Source: Nemertoderma westbladi (taxonomy: Eukaryota > Animalia > Xenacoelomorpha). From it: a stretch of 51,032 nucleotides of DNA. Under the pieces are notes generated by a model. That model saw nothing but the letters and a program-made list of their open reading frames with translations. It was not told where the DNA came from and searched no databases. Location of the stretch: contig JAUCBJ010003982.1 in assembly GCA_032718475.1 (NCBI GenBank), positions 1 through 51,032 on the forward strand, read 5' to 3'. Both the position numbers and the translations under genes were made by a program. Shown one piece after another: positions 2,488 through 30,328 of the stretch. The first letter of the stretch is position 1. Each line of letters starts with the position of its first letter.

Positions 2488-3155
2488 TGGATAACGGTGA
2501 TCTATAGGAACTACAATGAGTAAAGAACCGATCCGTTCACAGTTAGTCCCTTTCTTCTCGCGGCGAGATCACAGAAAACTGTTAATAATAGCTAATGATA
2601 AAAATATATAGGTATAAACGCGCCGGTTGGTATTAGTTAGCTGGTTGGTATACAAGATCCCTGCGTGGGTGGGAGGGTGGGTGGCCTAGGGCTCCGTACA
2701 TGGGTGAACCCCTTTGTGTGTCTGACTCATTACATAATGAGGGAGGCCCCTCCATTCTCTCTGCCCTTCCCTTTATGTTCACGTAGGCTCCCCTTTTCTG
2801 CTAATTTCTCTCATTAGCCTGTTTCTTATCTGCCTGGGGGTCACCGTACGTTCATGTGATCTCGAGTAAAGGTGGATTATGAACGTACGTGTTTGTTCGT
2901 TATAATACCGTGTTTGTCACTCCAAAGTTTATCAGTTTACAAGGAGTCAACTTAACGTACATTCTTTTATATAATTTACACAAAATATAATGCGAATTGT
3001 GTAATATTTAATCCGTTTGTTAAAGATAATAAGTATATTTATATAAGACAACGTAGGAGAAATTATTATGATTTAAATTTATAGAAAATTAATTTTATAT
3101 AAAAACTATCGACCATAAAAAAGAAACTTTTGGAAATCAATATTTATTTAGCAAT

Positions 3156-5216
3156 ATGAAATATTTATTGATAAATATCTTGCTAGCAATACCATTGGTT
3201 GTTGCTGTGCTACCACGTGAGACTCGTCAGTGGTCCCCAAAACAAAAACGTCCTGTAGACGACCGCTGCTCACATTGGGTGCTCCTAGTTGAGGACGACT
3301 TCTCGATTGATCATCTGTCGCCTCAGATCTCCTGCAAACCAACACCTTTAGGCTCCCACTATCTCAATTGCACCGATTGTAACTCTTCGTCACCATCTAA
3401 CGAGAAAATAAGAAATCGACAGTCTCTATGGAGTTTGTTGCTAAGTCGTTTGGGTGTGAAACGAATTATAACCCAGAAATCATTAAAAAGAGTAAAAAAA
3501 CGAGTTATTTTACAAGATGATGTTACAAACCCAAAATCAAACCCGTCTAAAAGGTCGAAATTTAGCAAACAAAGTTGGTACCTTTCTGCCATGAATATAA
3601 CAGGAGCTTGGAAGGCTGGATACACAGGTCGAGGTATCGTTGTAGCGGTTGTAGATGATGGTGTAGACTTCCAACACCCCGATCTATCGGCGAACTACCG
3701 TTCGAACGCGAGTTACGACTTCAATGAATGGGATACCATCCCTCTGCCTCGTAAATGGAGTGGCCTGCACGCGGCCGCCCATCACGGGACCAGATGCGCG
3801 GGTTTGATAGCGTCCGAAGGCAACATCTGCAACGTGGGTATCGCCCACGGGGCGTCGTTCTCGGCGATACGACTTCTAGACGCGACCATTACGGACGCCC
3901 ACGAGGCCGCAGCTCTCGAATCGAATCTCAACTCTATCGATATTTACAGCAGCTCGTGGGGTCCGGAGGATTCCGGGAACAACGTCGACGGTCCGGGGGA
4001 GTTGACTACGGCGACGCTAAAGAAAGGCGCGACTACCGGGCGAGTGCGCAATGGGTCCGCTAGAGGCGCTGTGTACGTGTGGGCCGCCGGGAATGGGGGC
4101 AACTCTGACGACAGCTGTGGTTGCGATGGTTACACCAATAGTATCTATACTATATCAGTGAGCGGGGTGACTGAGTTTGGCAATATTCCCAGCTTTCTAG
4201 AACCTTGTGCTAGCACCATGGCAGCCACATCCGCATGCGGTGATGTGAGTATTGGAGAAGCCTCCACGATTCTAACAACGGATTTAGGTAACGCCTGTAA
4301 GGAATGGCCTACAGGTACGTCAGCTTCAGCACCCATGGCGTCAGCGATAATCGCTCTAGTCTTAGAAGCGAACCCAGATTTAGGATGGCGAGATATTCAG
4401 CACATTGTGGTGCAATCTGCGGATCCAACTGCCATTCACAGCGGTAAATGGTCGGTGAACGGGGCTGGACTCAATGTCAGTCACGAATTCGGATTCGGTT
4501 TAATGAACGCCGGTTTGATGGTGGAATTGGCGCGAAATTGGCGTCGTGTTCCGGAACAGCATATTTGTAAAGCCGTTGTAGATGATAGGCACTTGTCAGT
4601 GCATCGTATTTCTAGGGCGCGGGCGATGAAACTCAATTTCTTGGTGAAAAACTGCGCGATAGAAAATGTGGAACACGTTATTGTTGAGTTGTCGCTCCAG
4701 TCGAATCTCCGTGGGAGTCTACAGTTGCATTTAACGTCACCAAGTGGTACTCAGTCCCGACTGCTAACACCCCGTCGTAAAGACGTACACAGAGGCGCTT
4801 TTGAGAATTGGCCATTCCTATCAGTCCACCATTGGGGGGAACATCCTAATGGACGTTGGAGATTCCACGTTTATAATTTTAATCAAAAGAAAAACCGCGT
4901 TAATGTTCGGAGATTGTCGTTGCGTTTGTACGGCACCGAGAAATATTCGGGGGAATTTAGCGGTACATCGCGAACTGAGAGTACCTCGACTCACACAGCA
5001 ACGAGCGAGACCACGATTAATACGTCTATAAGTAAGGTAGCAACCGTAACCAATGGGGTGACATCACCGGTTGCTATGGAGAGAGAGACTGTAACAGCTC
5101 CGTTCGTGGATCAATTTCGCATAAATTCAACAACATCAGGTGAATTATTGTTTCAATTTCCCTCAAACTCAACAGGAAATTCTCAGGTACATACTAATAT
5201 TTCTGCAACATATTGA
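3156..5216 (+). CDS. Proprotein convertase subtilisin/kexin-type (furin/PC-like S8B protease with P domain), single exon, 686 aa
   Basis: Signal peptide (MKYLLINILLAIPLVVA); prodomain ending KRVKKR; catalytic Asp (VVDDG), His (HGTRCAG), oxyanion Asn (AAGNGG) and Ser (GTSASAP); SWGPED and FGFGLMNA motifs; P domain (VEHV..LTSPSGT..WPFLSVHHWGE..LYGT); Ser/Thr-rich tail. Confidence 0.95.
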   Translation: MKYLLINILLAIPLVVAVLPRETRQWSPKQKRPVDDRCSHWVLLVEDDFSIDHLSPQISCKPTPLGSHYLNCTDCNSSSPSNEKIRNRQSLWSLLLSRLGVKRIITQKSLKRVKKRVILQDDVTNPKSNPSKRSKFSKQSWYLSAMNITGAWKAGYTGRGIVVAVVDDGVDFQHPDLSANYRSNASYDFNEWDTIPLPRKWSGLHAAAHHGTRCAGLIASEGNICNVGIAHGASFSAIRLLDATITDAHEAAALESNLNSIDIYSSSWGPEDSGNNVDGPGELTTATLKKGATTGRVRNGSARGAVYVWAAGNGGNSDDSCGCDGYTNSIYTISVSGVTEFGNIPSFLEPCASTMAATSACGDVSIGEASTILTTDLGNACKEWPTGTSASAPMASAIIALVLEANPDLGWRDIQHIVVQSADPTAIHSGKWSVNGAGLNVSHEFGFGLMNAGLMVELARNWRRVPEQHICKAVVDDRHLSVHRISRARAMKLNFLVKNCAIENVEHVIVELSLQSNLRGSLQLHLTSPSGTQSRLLTPRRKDVHRGAFENWPFLSVHHWGEHPNGRWRFHVYNFNQKKNRVNVRRLSLRLYGTEKYSGEFSGTSRTESTSTHTATSETTINTSISKVATVTNGVTSPVAMERETVTAPFVDQFRINSTTSGELLFQFPSNSTGNSQVHTNISATY

Positions 5217-5217
5217 A

Positions 5218-5223
5218 AATAAA
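5218..5223 (+). terminator. Candidate polyadenylation signal AATAAA of the convertase gene
   Basis: AATAAA immediately after the TGA stop, followed by T-rich sequence. Confidence 0.4.
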
Positions 5224-6989
5224 CAAATAACAACAATTCACGCAAAAATCTAAAAATATACTGAAAACTCACGTGATTAATTGTTTTTTATTTATTTTCG
5301 TAATATTTAATGAGCTTGTCGTATTTTTTATTGTTTTGATCTCTTGTGAGTTGTGATTATTTTTAGATTCCGAATATTATTTAGTTTAATGTAGATTCAC
5401 ATTGTAATAAATCACTCGAATTATCCTTTTTCTTATATAAAACACAATCGGACGAGAAGCATAAATATGCAACTTGGAAGTTGGTTTGTATTTGTAAAGT
5501 CCTATAATCTAGCACTTTATAAGACTGCAGTGCGTGACGTTATAAAATATGAATACCAGTGAGGATTATAGGGAAGATTAGTATGTATATCAATTGCTAT
5601 ATTTCTATACATATTATTCTATTATAGACATAATCCTGTCACCGCACAGCACAGACTTTGTAATCGTTAAACCTTTGGTAAAATAATTAATGTGGGGCGT
5701 GCCATAAAGTGTGCGATTTCGGTATATATAGATACCGCTGTTTCAACCATTACCCAAAGAATGCCAGGAAATTTATTGCAGTTTATATATTCCAGAACGT
5801 GAGGCCAATTAAATGAGTAAGGCACAGAAACTTTCGCGAAGAATCCGTCAGTTTCTGTGCCCTAATGAATTAAATTAGGATCTTTGGAATTCGGATGTAC
5901 TGTAACAGCTGTACCTGGAAGAAAGAGTGGAGGAAATCTTTTGTCCCACCCCCACCCCCTTTCTCATCTTGTATTAGTTTCTTGTTGTTCTCCGCTTAGC
6001 CATTCAATATATTTTAGTATTTTTGTTACATATATATTTGAAGAATTGTTTGTAATAAATAATAAATAAATATATTTCCACCACCTAACAACAACAGCAG
6101 TACCCATGTGAACATAGTTTATTGGAAATAGTAGGCTATATTTTGTTGCAAAGGTCTTCAAAGCAGAAACCAGTGCTGCAGTCGTTATATTGTTGACAAA
6201 TAAAACGTTCTAAAGAATCGAAATCTACAGAAGCAGCACGAGATAGTAAGTTGCTCATTTTTCCCGCAGTTACGCAATAAAGTGCTTTTCCATCTCCTAA
6301 GGTCAAAGTCTGAAATAAGAATACAACATTACCATTAGTGTAGCAATATAATAATAATTGTATGTACTGTATCAGTAATCAGTTGACGATAGTCAGCTGA
6401 TTAGTAGGTTTCCTACACCACAGGGTCCTTTATGCCAGACAAGGAAAATGACAATATAAGTCCCAAAAGTACTCTAGTAACCAATGAATGCCAATATATA
6501 CCTACCTATACAGTACAGGAAGGCCACTTTGTACTCTCTTACAATGTAGTAACCATGTTCGCGCTTTTAGACCTTTAGCAGTTTAACCTGCCAATTTTAA
6601 TTGTCTTTTTTGTATATCAATTATTTAATGTACTGAAGTTACATCAGCCGAAGCCAGTCTGTGCGCGATCATTCACCCACAGTTAAGGGAGACTGGATTC
6701 GGATGCTTTGATATTGATTGCAGTGTAGACCTACTGTATTATTCGATTGATCGTTACTATATAATCTCTGACAATATATTTACTTTCGGGGAAATATTAA
6801 CAGTTCCTTTAGGACGTGGCGCTTTAAGTATAAAAACAGAGTTATGACTTATACTAATCACAACTAGATGGCTATTGATTCACGTATAAAGCGCATTCTT
6901 TAGGAGATGCTTTGTTATCTGTCACAATCATGCACACTACCGTACAATGCTGCACACCGATCTGCCGACCTTCACTAATTTTAGTCACA

Positions 6990-7688
6990 TGTAAAGAGAA
7001 CAGCAACCGACACATGTAGTGCCTATGAAATAGCATTAGATTCACTCCAGAACCAATATAATGTAAGTCGCAGTTGCTACCGGTAAACCTGTTCCTCTCA
7101 CCTTCAGTAATCAAGAAGATTGGGGGTTTTATGATTATTCATCGGTATTCTCCAAATATATCAGCAATATACATTAATATCACAACAATTAATAACAGAA
7201 GTAAAATAATGCGGTGATGTATGTATGTCTGTATGATGTATGTATGTGTGTATGTATACAGTCAGTATGTATTACTTATGCAGTGTTCCATGTGCCGCAA
7301 TGTTCAATGTGTTAATAGTTTTACGTTCTTGTAATCAAAGCCATCAGATGTTTAGGCCAAAGTCTGAAACTTCCACAACAGAAAAGTACAGAAGATTTCC
7401 AAGCCGGTTCTTAGGCTCAGAAAGGTAAACAAAGACCGTAATGCATTGCGCGGTTTTCCATAGGCCTCTGTCCAACATAAGGGGGAAAATCGCTCTGATT
7501 GGCTGACTAGGCAGAACAAAGAAAAGTTCCACGTCTACAGGAAATCAGCTGACAGATTTCGTCATCTGAGCTCCGATCTTTTAGAGTATTATGCGCATTG
7601 CGGCAAAAATGACTTGTTATGTCCGCAAAAGCACCTACACTGCGCATTGCGGGAAAAATGACTTGTTATGTCCGCAAAAGCTTTTACA
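6990..7688 (-). repeat. Candidate 3' LTR of the BEL/Pao element (boundaries unconfirmed)
   Basis: On the - strand a purine run GGGAGCGG is followed by TGTAAAAG at 7688, and a matching inverted terminus (TGTAAAG on +) lies at 6990. It contains a duplicated motif (7592-7681) and a CCAAT box (7498-7502, - strand). No second LTR is in the window to confirm it. Confidence 0.3.
7592..7681. repeat. Two-copy direct repeat, 49-bp period (TGCGCATTGCGG.AAAAATGACTTGTTATGTCCGCAAAAGC)
   Basis: Near-identical copies start at 7592 and 7641. Confidence 0.9.
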
Positions 7689-7765
7689 CCGCTCCCAGAA
7701 AATGGGATTTAAGTCTATAAAATATAAAAATCACAGTTTCTAAAATATAAAAATACTCTAAACGA

Positions 7766-9970
7766 TTAGTCCTTCTTACATAAATGGCGTTTAAGAAGTT
7801 TTTTGAGGCTAGCAAGAGTCCTTTTCTCTTTGGGGCGAGCCACTTTACTAGGAGGGCTATAACTCCTGGGTGAAGGGTGCAATACAATTGCATCGGAAGG
7901 TTTAGGGTTACGGTTTGGTGTATCTGCCGGTCGAGGTACCCGGTTGATCGATATCAACCTCAGTGGAACGAGGTCGAACAACCTTTAGAGCGTGTTTCAA
8001 GACAGCAGCTCTTACTGGTCCCCGACAGGTCGTTTGCACGAGAGCAGTAGGTGGACCGTGAGTAGTGAGAAATTTCCTCGGTTTGATGGTTTTTTCCAAC
8101 TCGCATTCTCGGGCTCTATATTCATATGGTTGTCTATGAACTTCTTGTAGCTCTGGATGCGAGCTTATGAACAAGTCACCGTGGGATTTATCAATGGTAG
8201 AAACTTTAAACTGTATGTAGGGTCTTCCGGTTTCACCATATAATATTGAGTTAAATTGACATAATAAGGATGGTCTTTGATCCCATAAAATGAGTTCGGT
8301 AAAGGTCTAGCGCGTAGGTTGACCTCGTGTACCATACGACGGACAAGATCCGCTCGATTTTCCGGAGGTTCAACGAGTATACCGTCGACACGAGCGGCCT
8401 CGATTGGTGGACGTTGTAACATAGGAGCGTCAGCAATAAGATCTCTAGATCTTAGGTTGATATCAACCGGCTGGGGTTGTACCGTGGCGAAGAGTTTGTC
8501 TCCGAAATGGGGAACCATTAAAGGATGAATAATGGTTTTGGAATATAGATCAGTCATAAGGATTTGAGCTTCTGGCTGGGCTAAAGATGCTTCTTCTCTC
8601 TCGTCCATTTCGATATGCTTCTCCTCGAGCTGATTTTCCTCTGCTTGTCGCTGGAAGCGTTCGTCTAAAAACTCTTGTAGAGAGTAGGTTCGTCCAAGTT
8701 CGATGTCCTCCTCGAGATTCTGGATTTCTCGATCAAACTGAGGTAAAGCTAATTCTTTTACCGCTTGGACTTGCTGCTGCAATTTACGTTTATCCCAGCA
8801 ATCGTAAGTTCCTTTTCTGATCTTTTGCCGAATAGCGTCTAATGCGTTTCGTACAACGCTCTCCTCCACCTCGGTGACGGGTTGTATCGGGGTTAAACCG
8901 GGACGATTATACGGGTTGAACGGCGATATTAAATATCCGCGTCCCAATCCGGCTAGTTAGGATGGGCGAATATCTAGAGATCTCAATACCGGAGTGCAAC
9001 CGATTAATTGTTCGGGTAACACTAGATCTTTGAACAGTGAGTACAGTTCAGGAGGATCCGTTATACTATTAGGATCAAGAGTCTGAGGTCTCACCAGGGA
9101 GTGAGGAGGTCTGACCGAGTATTCCGGAACTCTGATCATCGGTTTATTTAAGGATCGTTTGAGTCGAGCGAGCGTAGGTGATACGTCGAACAAGTTTCGC
9201 TCGAAACTCCCATAAGTACAGCGAGTAAAACTGTGTTTAGCGCAACGTCTCCGCAGATGTTTATGTCTTTCCGTTTGTTGGTTGGGTCTAGGGCATTCAT
9301 CGCAATAATACCAAAGACGCACGTCTTGTAGGGGAAACGCTGGTGATCTTTCTCCAGTTTTACAATATTCCTCCATCTGTTCGAAGCTATCCGGGACAAC
9401 AGGTAGCGGTCGATCGGCGGTAAGATACATCATAGTGAAATAGAGTCGTTTGAGTTCTATCATAGGGCTATGATGTATACCTTGAGGATATTGAGTTTCT
9501 AGATTTTGTTGACTGGCTACATTGAGATATGTTTCTCTCAGGAATTCCAAATATTCGTTGAAGTCACTGCGTTTATCTGGCTCTTCAACATCTTCTCTTT
9601 CTAGCCGGTTTCGAATAGAATTTTCATGTTCTATTCTCAGTTTATCGTTCCGACTCCGATGGGTATGATATTTAAATAGAACCATTTCCCTGTCGGTGTC
9701 TACATCATCCGTATCGTGTAAATCGATAGGATGACCAGTAGTTAAGAAGTCCATATACGTACCATTACGATGCGTATAGCGAACGGTGAATTTTCTATAG
9801 TCCAATTCACCCGTGAGCTGTTCCTTTAACATTGGCGGTTCGATATAACGGCCATCGTCCTCCGTAGTAGGTTGACTAGCGTCGCCACTTATTAAACTAT
9901 CAACAAACGCTTGCAATGGTAGGTTATAACGCTCCCTGATACCAAGATCATCTTCTATCAACTCCGTCAT
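7766..9970 (-). pseudogene. Disrupted accessory ORF A of unknown function (about 735 codons), downstream of and co-oriented with the BEL/Pao integrase
   Basis: ORFs 8957-9970 and 8165-8947 share a frame and are split by one TAA. Fragments 7908-8174 and 7766-7981 continue it via frameshifts. It has a Cys/His cluster (CDEC..HKH..C..H..C), a Glu/Gln-rich helical middle and a basic C-terminal tail. The C-terminal part aligns with ORF B at about 19400-20027. Confidence 0.7.
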
Positions 9971-10793
9971 AGCTGCTACATGAGTTTATCAATATTATAA
10001 TTAATTATAATTTAGGCTAGCGGTCGTCGCTGCCTCCCCCTCAATGCCCCCGGACAGTGCAAGATCCTCAGCGCTGATGTACTGTCGTCGCCGTGCCTCT
10101 CGCCAACGCAGTAGCTACACAACGACAACAATAACCAGCGTGAGTCACTCCACTGTCTGTCCCAAGGGCTTAGAATTACTTCAGGTTCTTGCTACAGAGG
10201 TAGGGCAACTTTCACAACTGCGACTCGCTACTGTAAACACACTTTAGTAGTAACATTCACCTATAAATGCACAAATTCCACACAACTGTCACAAATTGTA
10301 CACATTCGGGCCATTTGTCCGTTAGTCAAGTGCTTTCCAGAATGCCACGTTATTATTATGTATCCCTGGATACTAGCAGTATGCTATTTATTCCGTATGC
10401 TATTCAATCGGGCAAGCTTTCTATTGTTCTTTTAACTTGCTTCTAATTCTAGCATGGTTGTTGCTATGGTGACATTATGGAAAGCTAGCAGTAGAATTAG
10501 GGTAATTCTCATGCATGCAGATCTGGGATGCTATTTAATAGTAATTCTTTAATTGTCAATATTCCCCTTTATACATGATTTTATGGATTTTATCGGCTAT
10601 TGACTATACATTGGAGATTCTCGTACACTAATATACTTAATAGGGTGAATCTCCGCTCCCATGATCTATTAATTAATGGAATTTTGGGAATGTTATAAAT
10701 TGTATAAAATGACAATTTATCAAATTCATGAGAGGATATGAATTGAAAATTTATTTCTGTAAATTTTATTATTTAATATTAAAATAGACACAA

Positions 10794-11180
10794 TTTTATT
10801 CCAGAGCATGTCTGGGGACTAGGATCCTCAATTCTTGGAAATTTGTCCTTTTAAGAGTATCGGTAAGTGCTACGATATCTTAATTGACTAGAATTTTAAA
10901 GGATCTGAATTTTAACAGATTTTTGTTTTATAGATTTTCTTGGTTTACAAACTCCTTAGAGTTTATTTGTATGCATTTACTCTATTATAACATTTGTTTT
11001 AATAGATTTTATAAATATTTATTAAATATTTAATATTTGAGATGGGCACAGATTTATTCCAGAACATGTCTGGGGACGTTAACCACTGATTCTAGAATTT
11101 TGTCTTTCAAGTATATCGGTGGGTGCCGCGATATCTTAATCGACTAGAATTGCAGATGGTCAAAGGGTTTAACAGATTTA
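10794..11180. repeat. Two diverged copies of a 130-bp direct repeat (10794-10922 and 11053-11180)
   Basis: Shared TTTATTCCAGA.CATGTCTGGGGAC...TATCGGT..GTGC..CGATATCTTAAT.GACTAGAATT...TTTAACAGATTT. Confidence 0.85.
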
Positions 11181-11319
11181 TTTTGCATTTTACGCTACTG
11201 TTAAATGGACATCATTCTACTATATGTATTATTTAATATACGGCATGAGAGCAATATTGCAAGAAGCAATGTCAGTGAGAAGAGGCAAGTCGTTTCCAAA
11301 AGTAAATTTTCTTCGGCCG

Positions 11320-11562
11320 CTAGGCCAGGGATTACGCACAAAGTCTGACGACTTATTTCCAGTGCGGTCCCCCCAGAACTTTACTCCCCAGAGGAAACTC
11401 TAGTACTCATTTAGCTACCACTTAAGGATGCAAGGCAGAGATGCGCCCTGGCTGGTCCCTTTAAAGCATTCGTGCCGAAACGAAAACTGCCCTGGCCCAT
11501 GTAAGGATCGAACCCACGACCTACAGGAGATGTGAATTCAATGCAACCACTACACCAAGGTG
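11320..11562 (-). mobile_element. tRNA-derived SINE, family 1 (second copy at 29927-30095)
   Basis: - strand A box TGGTGTAGTGG and B box GGTTCGATCC. The body CCAGGGCAGTT..CACGAATGCTTTAA.GGGACCAGCCAGGGCGCATCTCTGCCTTGCATCC..AAATGAGTACT.GAGTTTCCTCTGGGGAGTA is shared with the copy in formin intron 2. The 3' boundary is approximate. Confidence 0.8.
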
Positions 11563-11580
11563 GAACCTTAAAAAAAAAAT

Positions 11581-11822
11581 ATTGGTTATTTATATAGCGC
11601 TTTTCTACGCTCAGCATACTCAAAGCGCTTTTATTATCATTACCCCAGCAAAGCCAGGTTCCCATTATACCGCTGGGTTGACGTAGGCACTAATGTCTAA
11701 AGTGTCTTGCCTAGGGACACAACAGTGCGAAATTTCTACAGCCTTTAGTCAGATTCGAACCTGCGCCACCAAACACTATTGTGTAAGCAGTTCAGGCGCC
11801 GTATCCACTCGGACACTGCGAC
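11581..11822 (-). mobile_element. tRNA(Ser/Leu)-like CORE-type SINE with L2-like 3' tail, family 2
   Basis: - strand head GTCGCAGTGTCCGAGTGG, B box GGTTCGAATCT, CORE-like TGTGTCCCTAGGCAAGACACTT, and tail AAAGCGCTTTGAG..AAAAGCGCTATATAAAT resembling L2-associated SINE tails. Confidence 0.75.
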
Positions 11823-12241
11823 AATATACCAAGGTCTACCCAGAGCTTGGTTTAGCCGAGACACGAGGATCTGAACTTTGCATTCCTAATACTCTACTTA
11901 CCAATAATACTTGAGTATAGTAGGAGCGGTATTGTACTTTAATAAGTACGGACATTTCATCTTACTGTAGTCACGTATTTATAGTATGATATGGACAGTA
12001 AGGAAAGAGAAAAATAATTATTTCTCGCCGTTAAACTAAATATATAATGTTAAATAATTAAGTAATAAACACGAATATATATATATTGCACTAATCTACT
12101 AAATAATCGCTAAAATAATATTCTACTAAATAAAATTAAAGAAAACGATTATAATAAAATTACATAATAATACATACATAAGTATAAAAATAATAAAAAC
12201 AGATATAAAATAATGTAGTCACATACCCACTCCAGACGCTG

Positions 12242-13420
12242 TTACGTTGAGGAGTCCCTAGATGTTTGTTGGATTAGGGAGGTGGTCGTGGGAAGAGTAT
12301 CTTGCCTTCCATAGTTTCCGGATAGCTCTCTGTCTCTTTCCAGTAAACATGGGCGATTGGGTTGTTGTGTTTCGAATACAATTCCAGGTTTCTTAAAGTT
12401 ACGTCGCATGACGACGAGTTCTACCGATCGCACTAAACCATCATCGGATATATGAGTCTCGATGATACGACCTGTCTGCCACCGCTTATGTGGAAGATCT
12501 GATTCCACAATAAGGACCATGTCTCCGGCGCTGACGTTTTCTTGCTGCGCAAACCACTTAGTTCGAAGTTGTAGCGTAGGCAGATAATGTTTTTCAAAAT
12601 GGTCAGCGTAACGACGGGATAACAACTGCATAAGTTGCCAAGTTTGCCGGCAGTATTTGTCTCCGTCCGTGATTTCCGATCGTGGGAGCATGGCTACAGG
12701 TTTCCTCAGTAGGAAGTGCGCGGGTGTTAGCGCTTCCAGGGAATCAGGACTCGATGAGACTGGCATAAGCGGTCTCTCGTTGAGATAGGCGGCGATTTCC
12801 TCCATTAACGTCCGCAAAAGTTCGTCGGTAAGATACGCGCGGCACGGCACTATAAAGTGAAATGCGGTCTTCACGCTCCTGATTAATCTCTCCCAACTTC
12901 CTCCCCACCAAGGGGCGTCGGCGGCGTTGAAGGTCCAGCTAGACGTGTTACCCTTAGCAGATCGTCCACCTGTCTTTGGTTCCAATCTTTGACGTAAGCC
13001 TTGATTTCATTGTTGGCACCAATGAAGTTCGTTCCCTTATCAGATCTCATTGTGTTACTAGTTCCAAAGCGAGCGATCTGTCGGCGTAAGCTCAATATGA
13101 AGCTATTGGTAGATAAATCGTTCACCATATCGAGATGGATAGCTCTGCAAGTCATACAGACAAAGATGACACACCATCTCTTGACTATAGTCCTAGCACG
13201 ATATACTTCAATAGGGCCAAATAAATCCACACCGGTATTAGTAAAGGGTGGTTCATAGAAGCTTACTCGTTCCCAAGGTAATTCTGCCTCTCGCTGTGTT
13301 AAAGGCCTACTGAATGCTTTCCTACAGGGTATGCAGTTCCTAAGAACTTGGTTCAGAGCTCTACGGGGTTTATGAATATAAGGAGTGGACAACGCACCCA
13401 CATAGTAATCTGTAGCTACT
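12242..13420 (-). pseudogene. BEL/Pao integrase (frameshifted)
   Basis: CIPCRK zinc finger half, PFTNTGVDLFGP, CMTCRAIHLDMV, SDKGTNF, then a frameshift near 12950-12985 to APWWGGSWERLIRSVK, LNERPL, LTPAHFL and YLPTLQLRTKW..GDMVLI..W..GRI (DUF5641-like). Confidence 0.92.
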
Positions 13421-13472
13421 GTGGATTTCCAAACCTGCATAATTCCTGAAAGGTTCAACTTAGTTCGGAACT

Positions 13473-16400
13473 TCAAAGTTCAAGAAGAAGTTCAAAGATG
13501 TCTTCGGCTAGTTCTTTGTCGATGAATGTACCTGTGCTGCCGGAGTTAAGGAGGGCGTTTACTATCAAGCTTTTCCCTAGTCCTTGGACTCTCAGCTGCA
13601 CTACAGGGAATTCCCGGATTCCGACGTTGGAAGTCGGCGCTTTCCAAGATGGTTGCCGGTCCGGAATAGTCAGTCGAGGATCTTCATCGCTTGTTTCAGT
13701 CTTATACGTAAGTGCTCGATACACTGCGGTGTTTATCATATAACAGGATTCGTTTTCGTCGGAGAATTCGTCCGTGTAGAATCCTTCCATCTCAGAGCTG
13801 TGGTCAGTGTCGTTCACATCACTGAATTGGACATGTAGTTCGGGCTCACTTACCTGACTCGTGCGGGTTTTGTCAAATTCTGTGTGCAGCAAGATATGAT
13901 GTTTCGCGCCGCACTTAGCACACCTAGCATCGGAGTAACAGGTCCGCCGTTGGTGTCCTTGTCTGAGACAATTATAACACAACCGCTTATCCAACATGAC
14001 ATCACGTCTATCCTTTAGGGATTTCTTCAAGAATGCATCACATTCACTCAAGCGATGGGGCCCTTCGCACAATGCACATTGCACATTTGGGTTTGATGTT
14101 ACTTACTTTAACCTGTGTGGTGTTGTGCACACTTGTTCTTTCCTCGGGTTTTCTTCCATGAATTCTCTTAGGAGACGTTGGAGGAGTTGTTACCTGCTCT
14201 CTCCTGTCACTGGTTCGAGACTTAGATTTACTTACGTCTTTCCTAGTTTTATTGACATAATAAGATCTTTTGGTGTCCTTACCGCTGTTCTCGTCATATG
14301 ACGTTGTCTGACTCCCACAATCCGTATAAAACACTGGTGTTACCTCTCTCCTAGTAACGGGTTTTTCACTTGCCTTACCTTCCGGAGTCTTCTCTCTAGA
14401 CTGTTTTAGGAGTTGTAATCTTACCTCTCTGTTCATGAATGACAGAAGGTCCGTCATGGTTGGATCTCTATGTTGTTGGTCCATCAAATAGAGAACCTTT
14501 TTGTCCCAGCGAGTACCTACTCCACCCTTTGGCAAAGTTGATGCTAAGGCTCCTACAACCATAGAATTCTGGTATTCATGAGACTTACCCAACCAGTCTA
14601 ACTGTCTACAGATCTCCTGAATCTCGTCGGAAAACTCTATAATCCCGCTGCTAAGAAACTTTCGGGGCGCTACTAATTTCGCATACAAATACCTAGCTAT
14701 GTTAGTCCTATTACCATACCTGATGTTTAGTGTATCCCAAACTTGTCTTAATCCATCTGGATGTCCAATAAACTTTAACGCCATTAACTTGGGAGGTCAT
14801 TCCAAGCACTCGATGAGGAATCTAAGTTTCTCTCCGTTACATAGTACAGAGTTCTGTATGTTATCTTTATAATATTCATTAAAAGGTAATCATTTCATCT
14901 CATCTCCATTGAACTTAACGACCTCTCCCACCTTTACCGCTTGACGGGCTTCGGTTCTAGCCATTTGATGCGTAAAACTTTCTTGGGCCATCGTATTATT
15001 TAATATTGAGTTATCGGTATAGAAATTTCTCGGATTATGATCAGATCTGTATGGGATATCATTGTCAACGGGTTTATAATTACCCTTAATAGGGTTTACT
15101 ATAGGAGTTTCTACTTCACTAGCAGTATAGATGCGTGTAGGCTCCACACCTTGCGCATGAAATACTTCAGGCCTAACAGGTTGACACATTGTTACAGGGG
15201 GTGGTGGTATACCCATTTGTATATTTACTAATTTATCGCGCTCTAAAGCGATACTCTGCTGCACTTCTTGCAACTCTAACCTACTCTCTCTTACTGTTCT
15301 CTTTAACTGCTGAACAGTCCCTTCCAACTCTCGGACCTGCTGGGAAGAACGTTTTTGATGTTCTTCTAGCTGCCCGAGCAGGCGATCCATCCCCCGCCGT
15401 CCCTCGTCTACCCACTCAACCGCCGAAGCAGGAGCCGCCAACATAGTAGCGGGTTGACGCGTAGGGACGACGGGCGACAAGTCATTTATGTCTTGCTCGG
15501 TGTCCAGGACCGGGAGTGATTCAGGGGCTAGTCTACTGGGCACAGGTAGTTTAGTACTGTGTAAAGGGAATTTAGAGTTAGGTTCTGGAAGTACAGGGGT
15601 CTCTATCACTGGAGTGACTTCAATGACAGGCCTAATTATTTCGGGTTCATCTACTATAGTAGGGAGTCTGTCTACTCTAATAATTTGGTCTGTGGGTTCA
15701 GGATTACCTAAGTCTACACTAGCCAGTTGCCTTCTCACCGCAGGAGGTAAATTAGGTAACTTCTGACGGTGTGGCGTTCTTCTACGTCCGCTTGAACGAG
15801 ATTCATTACCTCTACCTTCGGGATCTGTTGTATCACCTTCATTGGAGGAGGTAAATCCCTGTCTTCTGGGAGTAGATCGACTCAGTAACTGCATCTGAGT
15901 AGCTGTCCTTTGTTTCTTCAAGTAATCTTGTTTCGTCTGAAGGTTCTCCAGCTCTAGTTGGGTAGTCGCTTCAGACGCCTTCCGTTCTGCTTCTACCACT
16001 GCTTCTGCCACTTTTCTTTCAACTTCTACCGCTGCCGCTGCCGCTGCCTTTCTGTCTTCTATCTGTTTTTTCTTTAGTTGTTCTTCCTGTTCCATAGCGT
16101 TGAGGATGCTTTCATGAAATTTAGCCTGCTCAGCGGCTAATATTTCCGCATCTGACGAGTCCAACACAAATTTGGCTCCCTCACTATTAGGATGAAGTCC
16201 AGCTAGCCATCTCCTTAGCTCTTTGTCACCTATAAATCGTTGATAGTCCGACAGATAGATGTCAATAGCATCCTTCTTCTGAGGTTTCTCGGATGTAGCT
16301 TCGCCTTCCACCTGAGAAAAGGTAGCGTCTGTTGATTCTCCTTGAGTCATGCGCTCGGTTAGCTGAGCTTTCCATTGTGTCGTTCCCTGGACTTTAAGAC

Positions 16401-16888
16401 TCACCCGTTGGAACCAAGTCTTTATGGCCACTTGCAACAACGTGTCTTGGCTTCTCTTCGAAGCTTCCTCAAAGGCTGAAAGAATTAATCTGATCCGTAA
16501 AATTCGTTCACGCACTTGATAAAGCAGCTCTCCCTGCTCTTGAGGTCCTTGGCGCTGTTGAAATAGGTGTTCCTCTAATCGCTCCAAAGAGCTGAAGAAT
16601 CCCTGGACATATCCTGCTGCCGACCTCTTCCACACAGCTGGATCTCGAGTGTCCCTTACTACTCCCATCCTGTATAAGTCCTCCCAGGCAGCTTCCGATA
16701 AGTTAAACGGGAGTCCGGGTCCGGGGAAGTTCCATTGCATCTCAACAATAGACCTCAGTTCCTCCATCGTGTATCCCGCATAGCTGTCCCTTAGCCCTTT
16801 GCGGACACGCAAATGATCCTCCCGTGGGCCCAAGAACGCGGCTTTTTCCGCGTCATTTACGAACGCGTAGGAAACGGAATGCGCAGTA
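13473..16888 (-). pseudogene. BEL/Pao gag plus protease remnant (stops and frameshift)
   Basis: ORFs 14890-16833 and 14044-14784 are in one frame, split by two TGA codons, and contain KFNGD..EKLRFL..WDTLNIRYGN (DUF1759-like). ORF 13473-14084 has CALCEGPHRLSEC, CYNCLRQGHQRRTC and CAKCGAKHH knuckles plus NALLNSGST (protease DSG mutated to NSG). The frame stays open up to the foldback junction at 16888. Confidence 0.88.
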
Positions 16889-18295
16889 GGGCGGTGCGTT
16901 TTTTACTTTTTTTCGATTTCATTGTTCTACCGGTGCACAAAAGTTCCCAAATGGTAAAAAAATAAGGCAAAAAAAATTTCTTTAAATTTTGTCTATATCG
17001 GATCCCAAGAGGGTTGAAATTTTGAGCCAACGCGATGCACCATAATTAAATTTATAGCAATGAAACACATTAATGAAAGATCAATGAAAGAACATTTTGC
17101 ATGCATTAAATGTCATCAAATGGGTCCAAACTTAGTTAGATACCAAAATTTTAATTTTTGGATCAAGGGAACTAGTGCCAGAAGCACATGGACAGAACAT
17201 ACCACTTGGTACAAGTGATGATAATTCTAAATTTTCGCGATGGCCAACTTTAAGTTCTCCTACTGCATTAATATTATGCTCATTAGAACCGCGATTACCG
17301 ATTTAGTGGGGGTACACACCTTCAAAACAAACGTAGAGCGAATAGTTCTTGAAATATCGCTGAAAATGTGAAGTCCGGCACAAGTCTACATTAGCGCCTT
17401 GATGCGATATGGACAAATCCTCAAAAAATTGTATTTTTTGAATTATCTCAAGGAATCAAGAATAGACACATCACAGAAAATGATCAATGTAGTGGGTGTA
17501 GACTCCTTCAAAATAAGAGTAGAGTCAGTAGTTCTTGAGCTATTTTACAAAATGTCAAGACTATTTCCACCAATTTATTGATACTTGATATTGAGATTGA
17601 GTTGACCCATTCCACACATTTCGTACAAAAACTATAGTGAACTAATCACTACTCTTTCATTTTGAAGGTGTCTGTATACACTAAATCAATTTGTTGCGTG
17701 ATGTGTATATTTTTGATGCCTTAAGGTAATTCAAAGTATCATTGTTAGTGTATTTGCCCATATCGCTTCAAGGTGGTACTGTAATGTAGACTTGTGTCGG
17801 ACTTCACATTTTCTGCGTTATCTCAAGAATTATTCGCTCTACGTTTGTTTTGAAGGTGTCTACCCCCACTAAATCGTTCATTGTGGTTCAAATGAGCATA
17901 CTATTAATGCAGTAGGAGTACTAATAGTTGGCCATCGCAAAAATTGAGAATACTCGTCACTTGCGCCAAAGGGTAGGTTCTGGCCATGTGCCTGTGGCAC
18001 TAGTTCCCTTGATCCAAAAACAAAATTTTGGTTTCTAACTAAGTTTGGACCCATTTGATGACATTTGATGCATGCAGGAAGTTATTTCTTGAGTTATTGA
18101 TCTTTCATCAATGTGTTATATTGTTATAAATGTCATTGTGGTGCATCGCGAAGGCTTAAAATTTCAACCCTCTTGGGATCCGTCAAGATATCGATGAAAT
18201 TTAGAGAATTTTTTTGCCTTATTTTTTTACCATTTGGCAACTTTTGTGCACCGGTAGAACAATGAAATCGAAAAATAGTAAAAAACGCACCGCCC
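16889..18295. mobile_element. Non-coding foldback / long-TIR DNA element (1407 bp, arms about 650 bp, spacer under 100 bp)
   Basis: The left end GGGCGGTGCGTTTTTTACT..CGATTTCATTGTTCTACCGGTGCACAAAAGTT is the reverse complement of the right end ..AACTTTTGTGCACCGGTAGAACAATGAAATCG..AAAAAACGCACCGCCC. Complementarity continues inward to about 17545/17630. No transposase and no TSD are visible. Confidence 0.92.
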
Positions 18296-20027
18296 GAGCG
18301 TAGAGCTGAACGTACCGACATCGGGCACATTTCATTCCATGAACTCGGCTGGGATTTCAAGGAAGGTCGGTATAACCGTTATTTAAATCTGTACGGTGAT
18401 AATTATTCCCATTACTACTTCAATGGTCCTTTGACCGCCCCCGGTGCTGTTTATTCTAACATTATTGTCCCCCTTTGGCCTTCTCTCACAGTTTATATGA
18501 TTTACGAGAACTCTGCTGTGTCAGGTTGGTTGGCCGATACTTGTAGTAGGACTCCGAGGCCTCACCCCTTACTTCTCGGCACCAAGCTTGCCAACGTTAA
18601 TCGTGAAGGGAAATTCCAAAGTTTCGAATGTTTTCGAAGGTTTTTATTCCTCTTCTTCGGCATCGACAGCCAGTTCCGTGACCCTGCTCTGAAGAGACAG
18701 GTAATTAAGCGTTTCTCTGCCTTTGAGGACCTAAACCGAAAGGGTTTCGCCATATTCAAGTATGTGTGCGTCAAAACCCTACATTCCACTATTCTAGAAC
18801 GCCCCATCCTCAAGTCTGGGTATTCGGTTTCGATTGACCAAACTTCGGACAAGCAGTTAGCTTCCTATTTAAATGACTCTGCGGTAGACAACGTTTTAGA
18901 ATCCAAATCCGTCCATCCCACCTCTGAGTTAGACGATGACGGTGAGTTTATTATACTGTGGCACCTTGGACCACAGCCATTAACGAGATTCGCCTTTCAT
19001 TCGGCCGTATCACAAGGACGGAAGCGCTGCATCCAATGTGGCTCCCATGCGCATAAAGCGCCACTTACCAGTGAGATTTGCCAAACGTATTCACAATGTT
19101 CCGACCTACCCCTGCATTGTCCGTATTGTAGATTGTTTAATGACCACACATTCTTTAACTGTCCGCAACTCTCGGAACAGTGTGATAAATGTCTACTAAA
19201 GGGACATTATCCGGGCTCCTGCCCCTTTGACTTAACACAACGGGACGATGAAACATCCCTCCTAAAGTATATTAAATTGTGGGAACATTCCGCTAATTTA
19301 TACAAAGTCACGCACCTCCGTTATGAGTTCACCCACTCATATTGCGGAGTCTTTGCCTTCAATCCCTACGCCTTTGCTATTGAAGTGCAATGATCCCACC
19401 TTCCTGATTACCAATTACCATTAACAGTCTCGGAACTCACCAACGTTCAATACGTGCGCACGTTCCTTCGCCGCATGAACCCCGGTGATGTCAACGACTT
19501 ACAACCTTATCGAATTTATTCGGAAAGACTCCAATCTTGGTTACGAGTTCGTCGCCACCAATCCTGAGTTGTTACAAACTTCGGATCGAGTTGCGTACCT
19601 CCGTCATACCGCGCGTCTTGCGGAAGAGACAGTCAAGCCTCTAAGGTATGTTTCGGATAGAGGAGGTGTTACGATTTCATCACAAACCCTTAAAGGACCG
19701 GTCACTGCCGTCATCCTCAAGAAAGCGGTACAATCCACATTAACCTCTTCCTCTAGATCTTCACCAGCCAAAGTACTCCGAAAGGGTGTGAAGTTATTAT
19801 GTTATTATGTTCCAGCGGCAACTACAGTTATCGAACCTTAACCGGGAACATCCACTGGTGGACCAACCATGCGTACAGTCGCGCCCCCTTCAGACTCATT
19901 GGAAATTCATCCTTCTGCCGCTAAGGGGCTGCAGGTGCGAGGTTCCCCGTCTTCGTCGCCAAACAACGGTTCCCCACCGATGAAGCGTCGCAAGCGACCA
20001 TCCAAAAAGAAAAAGACCCGAAAATAA
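18296..20027 (+). pseudogene. Disrupted, 5'-truncated accessory ORF B: Cys/His zinc-knuckle protein homologous to ORF A
   Basis: The frame is open from the foldback junction (ERRAERTDIGH..) through 19393. It contains CIQCGSHAH..C, CPYCRLFNDHTFFNC and CDKCLLKGHYPGSC. It continues past a TGA (19391), a frameshift near 19490 and a TAA (19839) to the basic tail MKRRKRPSKKKKTRK, with a stop at 20025-20027. Confidence 0.72.
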
Positions 20028-21849
20028 ACATTAATTTTACTGGTTACTTTATATTACACCTATTTTACTTTCTATGACTCATATCTGTACTTTATATTAT
20101 ATGTAAAATAAGTAAACGGTGTCCCCAATAATCCTAATAATATTAAGTAATATTAATTATTCCCATTGAATTATTTTCTAGTAAGGGTTTTTATGCCATC
20201 TAGTGCCATTATACCCACATTCGAATTGATAAGATGCCTCAATGAGATTCGTGACGTCTTATTGGCCCATATTATTGCCTTGAGTAAACCTGAGCGCATT
20301 AACATTTTGCAGAGGAGTTATACCTCCAATGCAGGGCCTTTAGATACTGCTCACATTACTGATGACCAGTGTTTATTACATGCCTTTATGCCTTAATGTT
20401 TTATATCTTTATTGTTAAATGCCTTGGTCGTTAATGTCTATGTCTTGGTGACATTATAATATTATTAATTGATATTCTGTCGTTAAACTCAATTTACTCT
20501 CTCTTTGTTTGTTTAATATATCACCGATATTACGAAATCAAGAAAGTTTTACACGCGCCACAACAGGTGGGTCACTACAATTAAGTATTAGTGATAATCT
20601 GGACAATTGTATTAGATTCGTGTGTTTGTCATACCTCTGATTTACTAAATAATTAATATATGGCGATATCTCAGTAGACCATTATTATAAGCAAAGCCCT
20701 TATTATTAGTTATATCACGATTGAGAGTTGTCATGAATTGATTACGGTAGAAATATCAATATAATTAGACATAAAGACAAGTCATAATACGTTTCCCCTA
20801 AAGGGAAACACAAACACTGGACTTGAGTCCTTACATAATTAATTAGTCAGTCATTTACTTATTATACTGTGTTGTCACACCCTCCCGGTATCATATCTCA
20901 GTTAAATACAATAGACAATCAAATACCGTATCAAACTAAATAATTATAAAGCAAATCAATACATGAGAAGGAAACAAAGGGGAACTAATCGATACAGTGA
21001 GCGGCCCTCGTTGACAGGTACACTAGCGCAACTCCGTTCATTGTATCAGACCAGTAATTATAAGCCCACAGTTCATGGAACCTCTGCGTAATTGCAAAAG
21101 AGTCAAAATATATGAAATTGAGATTGAAAGAACATATTTTACTAAAAGCGCTAACACTGTCAGCTCAGCAGCTGTCAGACAGTCAGAGTAGTTTACCCAT
21201 CTGCCCATTACCGTTTCAAGTGTTTATAAGGCTGTAAGGTACAAGCAGACAGGCAGACAGGCAATACTGCAATATGCAGATATGCAATACCGGTACTGGA
21301 GTCTTAGGTCTAGCAGTAGGCCTACTGCCAGACTGAAGTCTGGCAGTGCTGCAATGCAGCAATTTAAGATATTCAGATATTCATGCCTTGCAGCCTTGGT
21401 ACGGTACCGCGGTACCGGCTACTGCTGTACTGGTACTCAGGAACTGTCTTTCATTTTTTCCTGTTGCTGTTACCTTCTGCTTTCTGGTTACCGGTCAGCC
21501 GGTCAGTAAAATAAAGTAGGCATACTGTTACATACCGGTACACATAGTTCCGAGTTAAGTAGCCTGCCGTGCCGTACCGGTACTGAAGTAGTAGGCCTAC
21601 CGTACTTAGCATTATTTCTGTATTTAGTACAGTATTTAGCATATTTACGTTTTGTGGACGTGGAGCATCCCATCAAGTGAACAGGTGGAGCCGTCTGGCT
21701 GTGGTTGACAGGTTGATGTTTTGGCAACTGCAGAACTGGCATCTAGATGAGTTTTCATAAAGATAAACACTTGAAATTTATACGGTATCGCTAAATAAAC
21801 AACTCAAACTCCATAAATCTGAAGTCGGTTAGTCTATCAGTCTATAAAA

Positions 21850-22887
21850 ATGGACAAAGATAAAAAGAAAGATAAAAAATCCGGCGGTATATTTCACTTT
21901 TCGTCGAAGAAAGACCCGAAACTAACGTTACGAGACGTTGGTGACCCTCAGCCGATAGGCGATGCGGTCGTCCCTGACAACGGATTCGTTGTGGTCGGAG
22001 GGGCCGAAACGCTAAGCGAAACCGACGTTCTCGAGAAATTCGAGAAAATGTTGGAAGACATGAATCTAAGCGAGGAGAAAAAGAAACCCCTGCGAGAAAA
22101 ACCGTTCGCGCACAAGAAACAGATGGTGGATCAGCACACTAAGAGATACCACCCGATCGGTTCGAAATCAACCGAAACCACCCCGGAGGAGTACATCCAC
22201 GGGATAAAGAACCCGGCGGAATGCAAACTCAAAGTTCTAGAATCCCTTAGAATCTCCTTAGCGAACAACCCGGTCTCCTGGGTTAAGGAGTTTGGGGAGG
22301 ATAAAGGGTTAGACTATCTGTTAGACAACCTCGTCTGGGACCTAAGAGACGTGGCGAAGACCCACGAATGCGTCCGCTGTCTGAAGGCCTTTATGAACAC
22401 TAAATACGGTATGACGGCTATGATGGAGAGGGACGATGGGTTCACTAAGTTGGCTTATTGTATCTCCGTTAGGGACACTGAAGGCGGCGTTAGGGACCGT
22501 TACGAAGTTATCATACAGGACGTCTTTAACCTGATGGCCCCCGCCTGTTTCTTCCCTCCCAAAGGCCACCAACGAGTTCTCGAAGCGTTCACCGTAATCG
22601 CGGAGGTGCGCACCGACGATCTAGAGGAACAGAAGCGATTCTACCCGCTGTTTAAGATTCTGGAAACGGCAATTAAGTACCAAAACAATAAACCGCAGGA
22701 CCAGCTGGCCCCCCGGATGGAGCTCGTAGTGGCGGCCATGTCGCTGACCAACGCGTTGATATCGAACGCGGATGATTTCGACTTCCGGGTTCATCTGAGG
22801 AACGAATTCGTTCGTCTCGGGTTCCGTAACGACCTTGTCGACGGTCTCGATAAGATGGAGGGGGAAAATCTAAAGATACAGATGAAG
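21850..22887 (+). CDS. dia: Diaphanous-related formin, coding exon 1 (GTPase-binding and FH3/DID region)
   Basis: AAAAATGG start context; FEKMLEDMNL, LESLRISLANNPVSWV, CLKAFMN and DFDFRVHLRNEF motifs; phase-0 donor AAG|GTTAGT at 22887/22888. Confidence 0.93.
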
Positions 22888-29926: not shown

Positions 29927-30095
29927 GTGAGTAGACGGGACGGGTCCCACCGGAGGTCGCGGGTTCGACCCCGCATGGGGACCAGGGCAGTTACCGTTTC
30001 GACACGAATGCTTTAACGGGACCAGCCAGGGCGCATCTCTGCCTTGCATCCATCACTGGTAGATAAATGAGTACTGGAGTTTCCTCTGGGGAGTA
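29927..30095 (+). mobile_element. tRNA-derived SINE, family 1, copy at the very start of formin intron 2
   Basis: B box GGTTCGACCC near 29962 and about 130 bp of body matching the reverse complement of 11380-11520. Confidence 0.8.
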
Positions 30096-30328
30096 TAGTC
30101 TTCACTACTTCACTTTGTACCCAATCCCTGCTCTAACTGCCGAATGTGATTCTTTGCGTTTTTTATAATTAACTTATTTCCTAATTTCACAAATAAATAC
30201 AAAATTTAACAAAATGCAAATAAAATTAAACTTTACAATATAATATATTCTGTAACATACGGAATTCCCAACAGTAAGTTAGTGATTAAATCATTTGTTT
30301 CTGTACTTAGGGTAACTTATTGGTATCC

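What the first reader, a model, noticed from the sequence alone, without database searches (positions are those of the whole stretch)
7766..20027. Unrecognised protein family present twice: accessory ORF A (7766-9970 -) and ORF B (18296-20027 +) share a C-terminal domain
Seen: after repairing stops and frameshifts, the last 170-200 aa align collinearly, although I see no obvious DNA identity. A LPNSFYGIKDHPYYV..MVKPEDPTYSL matches B LPLTVSELTNVQYV..MNPGD..TYNL. A FISSHPELQ..EKTIKPRKFLTTHG..TCRGPVRAAVLKHALK matches B FVATNPELL..EETVKPLRYVSDRG..TLKGPVTAVILKKAVQ. A QPGTSTG matches B *PGTSTG, A KPSDAIVLHPS matches B PPSDSLEIHPS, and A SPPSKVARPKEKR matches B SPPMKRRKRPSKK. Both end in an NLS-like basic tail and have upstream Cys/His clusters. 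Inference: protein-level conservation across diverged copies implies past purifying selection on a gene carried by mobile elements. I recognise no known domain in it, so it may be an undescribed nuclear, nucleic-acid-binding accessory factor (for example anti-silencing or transcriptional) of BEL/Pao elements.
Basis: partly seen in the sequence, partly recalled or inferred. Interest (0 to 1): 0.85.

Follow-up and report, generated by a model that had tools for sequence, protein, structure and literature searches.

The report
Orphan retrotransposon gene in env slot
Two broken, distantly related reading frames in an animal genome share a tail of about 140 residues that matched nothing in the databases searched; one lies in a highly repeated sequence just ahead of what is likely the end repeat of an LTR jumping gene, so they likely encode an extra, non-envelope helper protein predicted to enter the nucleus and bind the element's RNA.

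Summary
The A-B likeness is real but narrower than reported. Core, PGTSTG block and basic tail each beat shuffles (0, 0 and 31-39 of 5000); the LPNSF/LPLTV block does not (3774 of 5000), and the N-terminal halves with their Cys/His clusters are unrelated. A lies in a very abundant repeat in three samples, and 13 of 24 listed differences in it are synonymous (8 expected). After A's stop come a purine tract and a candidate 1159-bp 3' LTR (7688-6530), and a deleted BEL/Pao gag-integrase lies 2.3 kb upstream on the same strand. A is therefore likely an accessory gene in the env position. That it belongs to this BEL/Pao element is colinear but unproven; B faces the other way beyond a foldback and likely comes from another element. 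Neither has a membrane segment or any homologue in Pfam, NCBIfam, PDB, 5.8-billion and 1.84-billion protein searches; the folds failed. B carries three zinc-knuckle-like motifs and both end in a basic tail. Best guess: a nuclear RNA-binding helper working like Rev or CERV, untested. New variant of a known kind; interest 0.4.

The parts
6530..7688 (-). Candidate 3' LTR, 1159 bp, TGTA...TACA, with TATATA at 6763 and ATTAAA at 6629 and 6601; the left end could instead be 6545
   Evidence: Sequence; single-copy contig ends at 6550 in three runs and depth rises several thousandfold beyond it in X1-X3; an X4 contig has 46 foreign letters beyond 7689. No second copy in 2400-22880.
7689..7702 (-). U-tract and polypurine-tract-like GGGAGCGG (7696-7689) directly before TGT, 77 nt after A's stop
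   Evidence: Sequence; function inferred from Belpaoviridae layout (PMC8742986)
7766..9970 (-). ORF A, about 730 codons, broken by one in-frame stop (8957-8959) and two frame changes (near 8200-8215, near 7910); acidic, one Cys/His cluster, basic tail
   Evidence: longest stop-free run 342 codons against shuffle maximum 193 of 1000; 13 of 24 listed differences synonymous
7772..8215 (-). Part of A shared with B (core, PGTSTG, proline/basic tail)
9971..11240 (-). Non-coding region upstream of A, high-copy at least to 10950 and joined to A in other copies; AG dinucleotides just before A's ATG could be a splice acceptor (untested)
   Evidence: Depth and joints 9734-9943 and 9978-10208; sequence
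12242..13479 (-). BEL/Pao-type integrase, frameshifted, 5' part missing
   Evidence: DUF5641 E 8.9e-20; family assignment of that domain from my own knowledge
13473..16887 (-). BEL/Pao-type gag (very long N-terminus, DUF1759, three zinc knuckles) and start of protease; abuts the integrase with no RT or RNase H between
   Evidence: DUF1759 E 1.3e-5; three motifs; frames
16887..18297 (.). Non-coding foldback element, arms 88-96% complementary, between gag and B; flanks GCGCAG / GCGTAG agree in 5 of 6 letters
18296..20027 (+). ORF B, open from the foldback edge with no ATG until 18497; three CCHC-like motifs, one canonical; two in-frame stops and one frame change; basic tail
   Evidence: stop-free run 365 codons against shuffle maximum 267 of 1000
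19497..20024 (+). Part of B shared with A
20108..20122 (+). Purine-rich stretch ending CGG|TGT, 92 nt after B's stop, the same junction as after A; possible start of B's own LTR
   Evidence: CGGTGT within 120 nt in 14 of 2000 shuffles; motif chosen after seeing A; no read evidence

Best explanation
A and B share a C-terminal region and lie among retrotransposon pieces; they are likely decayed copies of one accessory gene family carried by LTR retrotransposons in the slot where env would sit, and the protein is predicted to enter the nucleus and bind the element's own RNA to help export or protect it. Shown: the homology, the multicopy nature of A, the excess of synonymous differences, the purine tract and TG...CA stretch after A, the lack of membrane segments, B's zinc-knuckle motifs and both basic tails. 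Inferred: the stretch 7688-6530 is a 3' LTR (about 0.75); A belongs to the BEL/Pao gag-integrase upstream, giving gag-pol-A-PPT-LTR with RT and RNase H deleted (about 0.55); B comes from a second, diverged element facing the other way and cut at the foldback (about 0.6); the gene is made from a spliced or internally started message, the basic tail is a nuclear signal, the shared core is a common effector or oligomer module and the unrelated N-terminal Cys/His halves read each element's RNA, as Rev and CERV do (about 0.35-0.4, no direct test).
For: Homology. Repeat: 30344, 10313, 20398 and 408 contigs laid on 6300-10950 in four runs (at most 3 samples, 3 studies) against one 711-nt contig on the flank; internal deletions 7914-8599 and 8119-8610 in three runs. 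Constraint: 13 of 24 listed differences synonymous, random placement 8.0, 109 of 5000; second codon positions best kept between A and B, 25 of 53. LTR: GGGAGCGG|TGTA, length within 0.2-1.2 kb and tract near 10 nt as in Belpaoviridae; boundary at 7689 in an X4 contig; TATATA then ATTAAA near the far end; depth lowest in the would-be U3 and high in R-U5 in X1-X3, as U3 varies most (PMC3601003). Same strand and order as gag-integrase. Not Env: highest 19-residue hydropathy 0.99 in A and 1.31 in B. RNA binding: canonical C-x2-C-x4-H-x4-C in B; weak leads to zf-CCHC clusters at 0.82 and to Air2 at E 1.9. Precedent: CERV is nuclear, has a basic signal and a Cys loop, no homologues outside nematodes, and is needed for RNA export (PMC10309623).
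Against: No second LTR, primer site or target duplication in the window. GAGTGGGTA|TGTGAC at 12232-12218 directly behind the integrase could be the BEL element's own tract and LTR start. No read data cover 10950-12242 or B. Fourfold-site base use of A and B differs from gag+integrase (p 0.039 and 0.003). In X4 depth is higher in the would-be U3 than in R-U5, unlike X1-X3, and loose ends at 7674-7678 show other copies changing sequence 10-15 nt into the candidate LTR. No AATAAA in it. A has no canonical knuckle. Gap counts inside against outside the ORF are not significant (p 0.36, 0.14). A 67-codon ORF lies inside what would be B's LTR. The synonymous excess rests on 24 rows chosen by the tool from 943.
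Confidence: 0.4

Rival explanations
1. A is an accessory gene of a different LTR element (Gypsy-type or non-autonomous); the BEL/Pao piece ends at its own LTR from 12223 and merely lies next to it in a nest of insertions.
For: Purine-rich run plus TGTGAC 18 nt after the integrase stop; fourfold-site base use differs from gag+integrase; a SINE-like and a hammerhead-like insert lie in the 2.3-kb spacer; many deleted derivatives of A.
Against: Same strand, correct order and plausible spacing; the stretch after 12223 has no partner in the window and matches the 20879 candidate over 9 letters only.
Confidence: 0.3
2. Same gene family, but the protein is a DNA-binding activator or anti-silencing factor acting on the LTR, as foamy virus Tas or Arabidopsis VANC do (both recalled, not looked up).
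For: Basic tail, acidic and proline-rich stretches in A (pI 5.2-5.6 in the N-terminal pieces); nuclear location is reported for plant additional ORFs (PMC7264820).
Against: B's motifs are knuckle-type, normally RNA-binding (PMC10309623; PMC2774666); no shared sequence between the candidate LTR and the region upstream of A (score 29, shuffle maximum 31).
Confidence: 0.2
3. B is an antisense gene of the same BEL/Pao element, head to head with gag, and the foldback is a simple insertion between once-adjacent flanks.
For: The 6-bp flanks of the foldback agree in 5 of 6 letters; both gag and B are open right to its edges; additional ORFs upstream or antisense are known in plants (PMC7264820).
Against: Nothing right of B resembles the candidate LTR (scores 24-26, shuffle means 25); one element would then carry two paralogues; 36 length and offset pairs were tried for the flank match, so chance is not small.
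Confidence: 0.15
4. The family is not retroviral-type at all: a captured host RNA-binding gene piece, a fragment of an unknown virus, or an accessory gene of a DNA transposon.
For: Internal deletion series as in non-autonomous DNA elements; faint Air2 and zf-CCHC leads.
Against: No terminal inverted repeat found for either border; no host or viral relative in any search; tract-plus-TG junction after both ORFs.
Confidence: 0.1
5. The first frame change in A is programmed: ribosomes slip back one base at T TTA AAG, so the shared domain is an optional extension.
For: An in-phase slippery heptamer lies exactly at the change and is the only one in 600 codons of A's first two pieces; no indel row is shown there among 12 of 104 rows.
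Against: B has no heptamer there and runs through in one frame; downstream fold is unremarkable (z -0.9); such heptamers occur 6 times in 1889 codons tested; no indel row is shown at A's second frame change either, so the table is uninformative.
Confidence: 0.1

Closest known systems
CERV of the C. elegans LTR retrotransposon Cer1 (PMC10309623; passages seen)
   Same: Large non-Env accessory protein of an invertebrate LTR element, lineage-restricted, fast-diverging, basic nuclear signal and Cys-rich region; needed for export of unspliced RNA.
   Different: CERV shares exons with gag in a Gypsy-type element and has H, M and G domains; A is a separate ORF behind pol. No sequence hit in any search here; not aligned directly.
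Non-env ORF3s of bdelloid rotifer LTR retrotransposons (PMC5408684; abstract and passages)
   Same: Family-specific third ORF between pol and the 3' LTR, shared between unrelated elements, typically from spliced messages.
   Different: Those are GDSL esterases, DEDDy nucleases, coiled-coil or membrane proteins; A and B hit none of these in Pfam.
Additional ORFs of plant LTR retrotransposons, e.g. Grande gene23, RIRE2, Retand (PMC7264820; parts 1-2 of 3 read)
   Same: Orphan, conserved in most copies, some nuclear, function unknown, near the 3' LTR.
   Different: Plant Gypsy elements, mostly antisense; A is sense and animal.
Belpaoviridae with a third gene: Roo, Tas, mosquito BEL with gB-like Env (PMC8742986 whole text; PMC13524379 passages)
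   Same: Third ORF in the same slot of a Bel/Pao element, if the link holds.
   Different: The third genes described there are envelope glycoproteins; A and B have no membrane segment and end in a basic tail.
Zebrafish DrFV-1 extra ORFs (PMC2774666; passages)
   Same: Extra ORFs without similarity to any known sequence in an animal LTR element.
   Different: Spumavirus-like element with three ORFs; no homology tested beyond the general searches.

Membership tests
Belpaoviridae (gag-pol piece 12242-16887) | Gag with capsid and zinc-knuckle nucleocapsid; integrase last in Pol | tested here: met
   DUF1759 E 1.3e-5, DUF5641 E 8.9e-20; three knuckle motifs. That these two domains mark Bel/Pao is from my own knowledge.
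Belpaoviridae (gag-pol piece 12242-16887) | PR-RT-RH-IN order; RT phylogeny | not testable with these tools
   RT and RNase H are absent from this copy: the protease start abuts the integrase.
Belpaoviridae (element carrying A) | Two LTRs of 0.2-1.2 kb with TG...CA ends | tested here: inconclusive
   One candidate of 1159 bp; no second copy in 2400-22880.
Belpaoviridae (element carrying A) | Polypurine tract of about 10 nt before the 3' LTR | tested here: met
   GGGAGCGG, 7 of 8 purines, after a U-tract and directly before TGT.
Belpaoviridae (element carrying A) | 18-nt primer site for tRNA-Arg or -Gly after the 5' LTR | not testable with these tools
   No 5' LTR in the window; pattern scan gave only short look-alikes.
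Belpaoviridae (element carrying A) | A linked to Bel/Pao gag-pol in independent copies | tested here: inconclusive
   Colinear in this window only; no genome held; read laying reached 10950; no related loci found.
Env / viral fusogen | Signal peptide and C-terminal membrane anchor | tested here: not met
   Highest 19-residue hydropathy 0.99 in A, 1.31 in B; tails are basic. B's true N-terminus is not in view.
Env / viral fusogen | Sequence likeness to F, gB or Gc glycoproteins | tested here: not met
   No such hit in Pfam or PDB sequences.
CCHC zinc-knuckle proteins | C-x2-C-x4-H-x4-C | tested here: met
   One exact and two variant motifs in B; none exact in A. Pfam zf-CCHC was not reported for B.
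Rev/CERV-like export factor | Nuclear, binds the element's RNA, needed for its export | not testable with these tools
   Only sequence hints.

The most novel reading that the evidence does not exclude
An abundant Bel/Pao lineage carries a previously undescribed modular accessory gene: a constant, new-fold C-terminal effector with a nuclear signal joined to exchangeable N-terminal metal-finger modules that give each element family its own RNA specificity, the first Rev-like or anti-silencing gene for Belpaoviridae and a possible cause of the family's huge expansion.
Probability: 0.2. Interest if true: 0.72.

Novelty: new variant of a known kind. Interest (0 to 1): 0.4.

Why it matters
The ICTV profile lists only gag, pol and env for Bel/Pao elements, and the third genes in the papers read are envelope proteins. 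A conserved non-envelope, likely nuclear gene in that slot would make these elements 'complex' like lentiviruses or Cer1 and would give a testable handle on how invertebrate retrotransposons get unspliced RNA past nuclear retention and silencing. Two members with unrelated N-termini and one shared domain suggest module exchange. If the function stays unknown it is one more orphan additional ORF, a kind already recorded in plants, rotifers and fish.

Tried and rejected
No genome is held. Word-based protein searches: A 606 aa near lengths, 0 of 7052 candidates; A shorter, 0 of 1856; B N-terminal, 0 of 648; longer lengths were not searched for either. HMMER with a three-row profile of the shared region over 1.84 billion proteins: 1 hit, a tandem-repeat protein matching only the basic tail, rejected. 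Pfam, NCBIfam, PHROGs: nothing for A or B above cut-off. Atlas: B N-terminal leads at 0.83 or lower, A shared piece no usable hit; B's tail was not searched there. Related loci: none in metagenome contigs (A piece 1, integrase) or viral contigs. AlphaFold models had mean pLDDT 40 and 30; one Foldseek run gave nothing at E 0.001; these say nothing about fold. Rfam 5000-22500: 0 matches; no tRNA. No RNA holder listed. Exact look-ups for three proteins: not in the collection. A or B as a second gag: no match to this gag beyond the knuckle spacing (4 of 200 for B). Terminal inverted repeats for the A element: not found. Literature: 8 searches showed no listing of a non-env accessory gene in Bel/Pao elements; subscription papers, Repbase and supplements (for example the element set of PMC3118150, passages only) were not seen and could hold relatives.
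Full report
Setting. The window is animal DNA with an intronless subtilase gene, a formin gene split by satellites, a LINE piece and nested repeats. No whole genome is held, so structure had to come from the window and from public contigs laid on it.

The observation. Their stop-free runs of 342 and 365 codons exceed the maxima of 193 and 267 in 1000 shuffles. Of 16 comparisons between unbroken pieces, one stands out: 22 of 69 identical, score 86, 0 of 1000 shuffles; the tail pair reached 27 of 1000. DNA identity in the core is 61 of 159, highest at second codon positions, and 9 of 14 identical residues use different codons, which is what long divergence under protein constraint gives. The N-terminal halves are unrelated: B has three CCHC-like motifs, one canonical, and A one different Cys/His cluster.

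A is part of an abundant mobile family. Four DNA runs of one organism (at most 3 samples, 3 studies; one may be the window's source) were laid on 6300-10950. A single 711-nt contig covers the flank and ends at 6550 in three runs; beyond it 30344, 10313, 20398 and 408 contigs were laid, most 90-99% alike. Depth there is not a copy number, but the contrast is several thousandfold in X1-X3. Joints show deleted derivatives (7914-8599, 8119-8610, 9734-9943) and tie A to its upstream region (9978-10208); 15 of 66 joints were shown. Of 40 difference rows shown out of 943, 24 fall in A; 13 are synonymous against 8.0 expected (109 of 5000; binomial p 0.028 for third positions). The other 16 rows lie outside A and were left out. 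Of 23 listed pieces inside A, 14 have no gap, against 2 of 6 in non-coding repeat; this is not significant (three flank rows left out). Whether the stop and the frame changes are private to this copy could not be read: only 12 of 104 indel rows were shown and none lies in A.

A sits in the env slot. Seventy-seven bases after its stop come a U-tract, GGGAGCGG and TGTA at 7688; 1159 bases on, the stretch ends in TACA at 6530, with TATATA at 6763 and ATTAAA at 6629 and 6601. An X4 contig carries 46 foreign letters beyond 7689, and the end of the flank contig at 6550 implies shared 31-letter words from about 6521, which suits 6530 better than the alternative TGTA at 6545 (inference). Length and tract fit Belpaoviridae (PMC8742986, whole text), and low depth in the first half in X1-X3 fits the greater variability of U3 (PMC3601003, passages). 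Against: X4 shows the opposite depth pattern, other copies change sequence 10-15 bases into the stretch, there is no AATAAA, and no second LTR is in the window.

The BEL/Pao link is plausible, not shown. Gag (DUF1759, three knuckles), a protease start and integrase (DUF5641) run on the same strand 2.3 kb upstream; RT and RNase H are missing. The order gag-pol-A-tract-LTR is that of a three-gene element. But GAGTGGGTA|TGTGAC just behind the integrase could be that element's own LTR start, the spacer holds later inserts, no read data cover the join, and fourfold-site base use differs between A and gag+integrase (p 0.039). I put the link at about 0.55.

B faces away from gag across a 1.4-kb foldback. 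Its frame is open from the foldback edge with no ATG for 66 codons, so its start is not in view. It is followed by a T-rich stretch and CGG|TGT like A (14 of 2000 shuffles, motif chosen afterwards), but nothing after it resembles A's candidate LTR. I read it as the end of a second, diverged element; the 5-of-6 flank match keeps open that it is an antisense partner of this gag. Its copy number was not measured.

No relative was found. Pfam, NCBIfam and PHROGs, word searches over 5.8 billion proteins, HMMER over 1.84 billion (one spurious repeat), PDB sequences, Atlas and contig scans gave nothing usable. These collections are mostly microbial and did not hold the integrase's relatives or three exact look-ups either, so the blank shows orphan status in these collections only. 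Models were too poor to use.

How it likely works. No membrane segment rules out Env. A basic, proline-flanked tail in both and knuckles in B suggest a nuclear nucleic-acid-binding protein, RNA more likely than DNA. The nearest working example is CERV, a nuclear, Cys-loop, lineage-restricted protein needed to export Cer1 genomic RNA (PMC10309623, passages). I therefore commit to a Rev/CERV-like helper made from a subgenomic message, the shared core acting as common effector and the variable N-terminus giving specificity. Every step of that mechanism is inferred; I give it 0.35-0.4, with activation or anti-silencing at 0.2.

Comparison and novelty. Extra ORFs behind pol are a known kind in plants (PMC7264820), rotifers (PMC5408684) and fish (PMC2774666), and two unchecked notes of this scan report orphan zinc-finger ORFs there in other genomes. 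For Bel/Pao the papers read name only env-like third genes, and 8 searches listed no non-env case; subscription papers, Repbase and supplements were not seen. Verdict: a real, constrained, orphan accessory gene family, a new variant of a known kind, function untested. Interest 0.4.

Noticed in passing
window 11345-11399 and 11240-11500 (+): Hammerhead-like core CTGACGA...GAAAC in an insert whose part 11378-11498 recurs inverted at 29979-30099 (91%); other notes of this scan describe tRNA-headed hammerhead repeats in this genome. Rfam gave no match.
   Followed up: partly
window 11490-11820: SINE-like stretch with tRNA-box-like and conserved-core-like motifs (recalled resemblance) in the spacer between integrase and A.
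   Followed up: no
window 14890-16887 (-): Gag has an unusually long, family-less N-terminus of about 665 codons with coiled-coil-like and proline-rich parts before DUF1759.
   Followed up: partly
window 16887-18297: Foldback element 82% self-complementary over 1437 bases with TAGGGC-type ends and a possible 6-bp target duplication.
   Followed up: partly
window 20193-20396 (+): Small 67-codon ORF with ATG after B; no NCBIfam hit; strongly C/T-biased fourfold sites.
   Followed up: partly
window 20874-20888 (-): CCGGGAGGG|TGTGACAAC looks like a purine tract plus LTR start and shares 8 of 9 letters with the start at 12223, but no more.
   Followed up: partly
window 10770-10922 and 11027-11179: 155-bp direct repeat, 75% alike, upstream of A.
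   Followed up: no
window 3093-5216 (+): Intronless furin-like convertase (Peptidase_S8 plus P-domain) beside the element's left border.
   Followed up: no
window 21850-50300 (+): Diaphanous-like formin gene whose few introns are filled by 49-, 25- and 26-bp satellites (the last about 18 kb) and a LINE piece.
   Followed up: no
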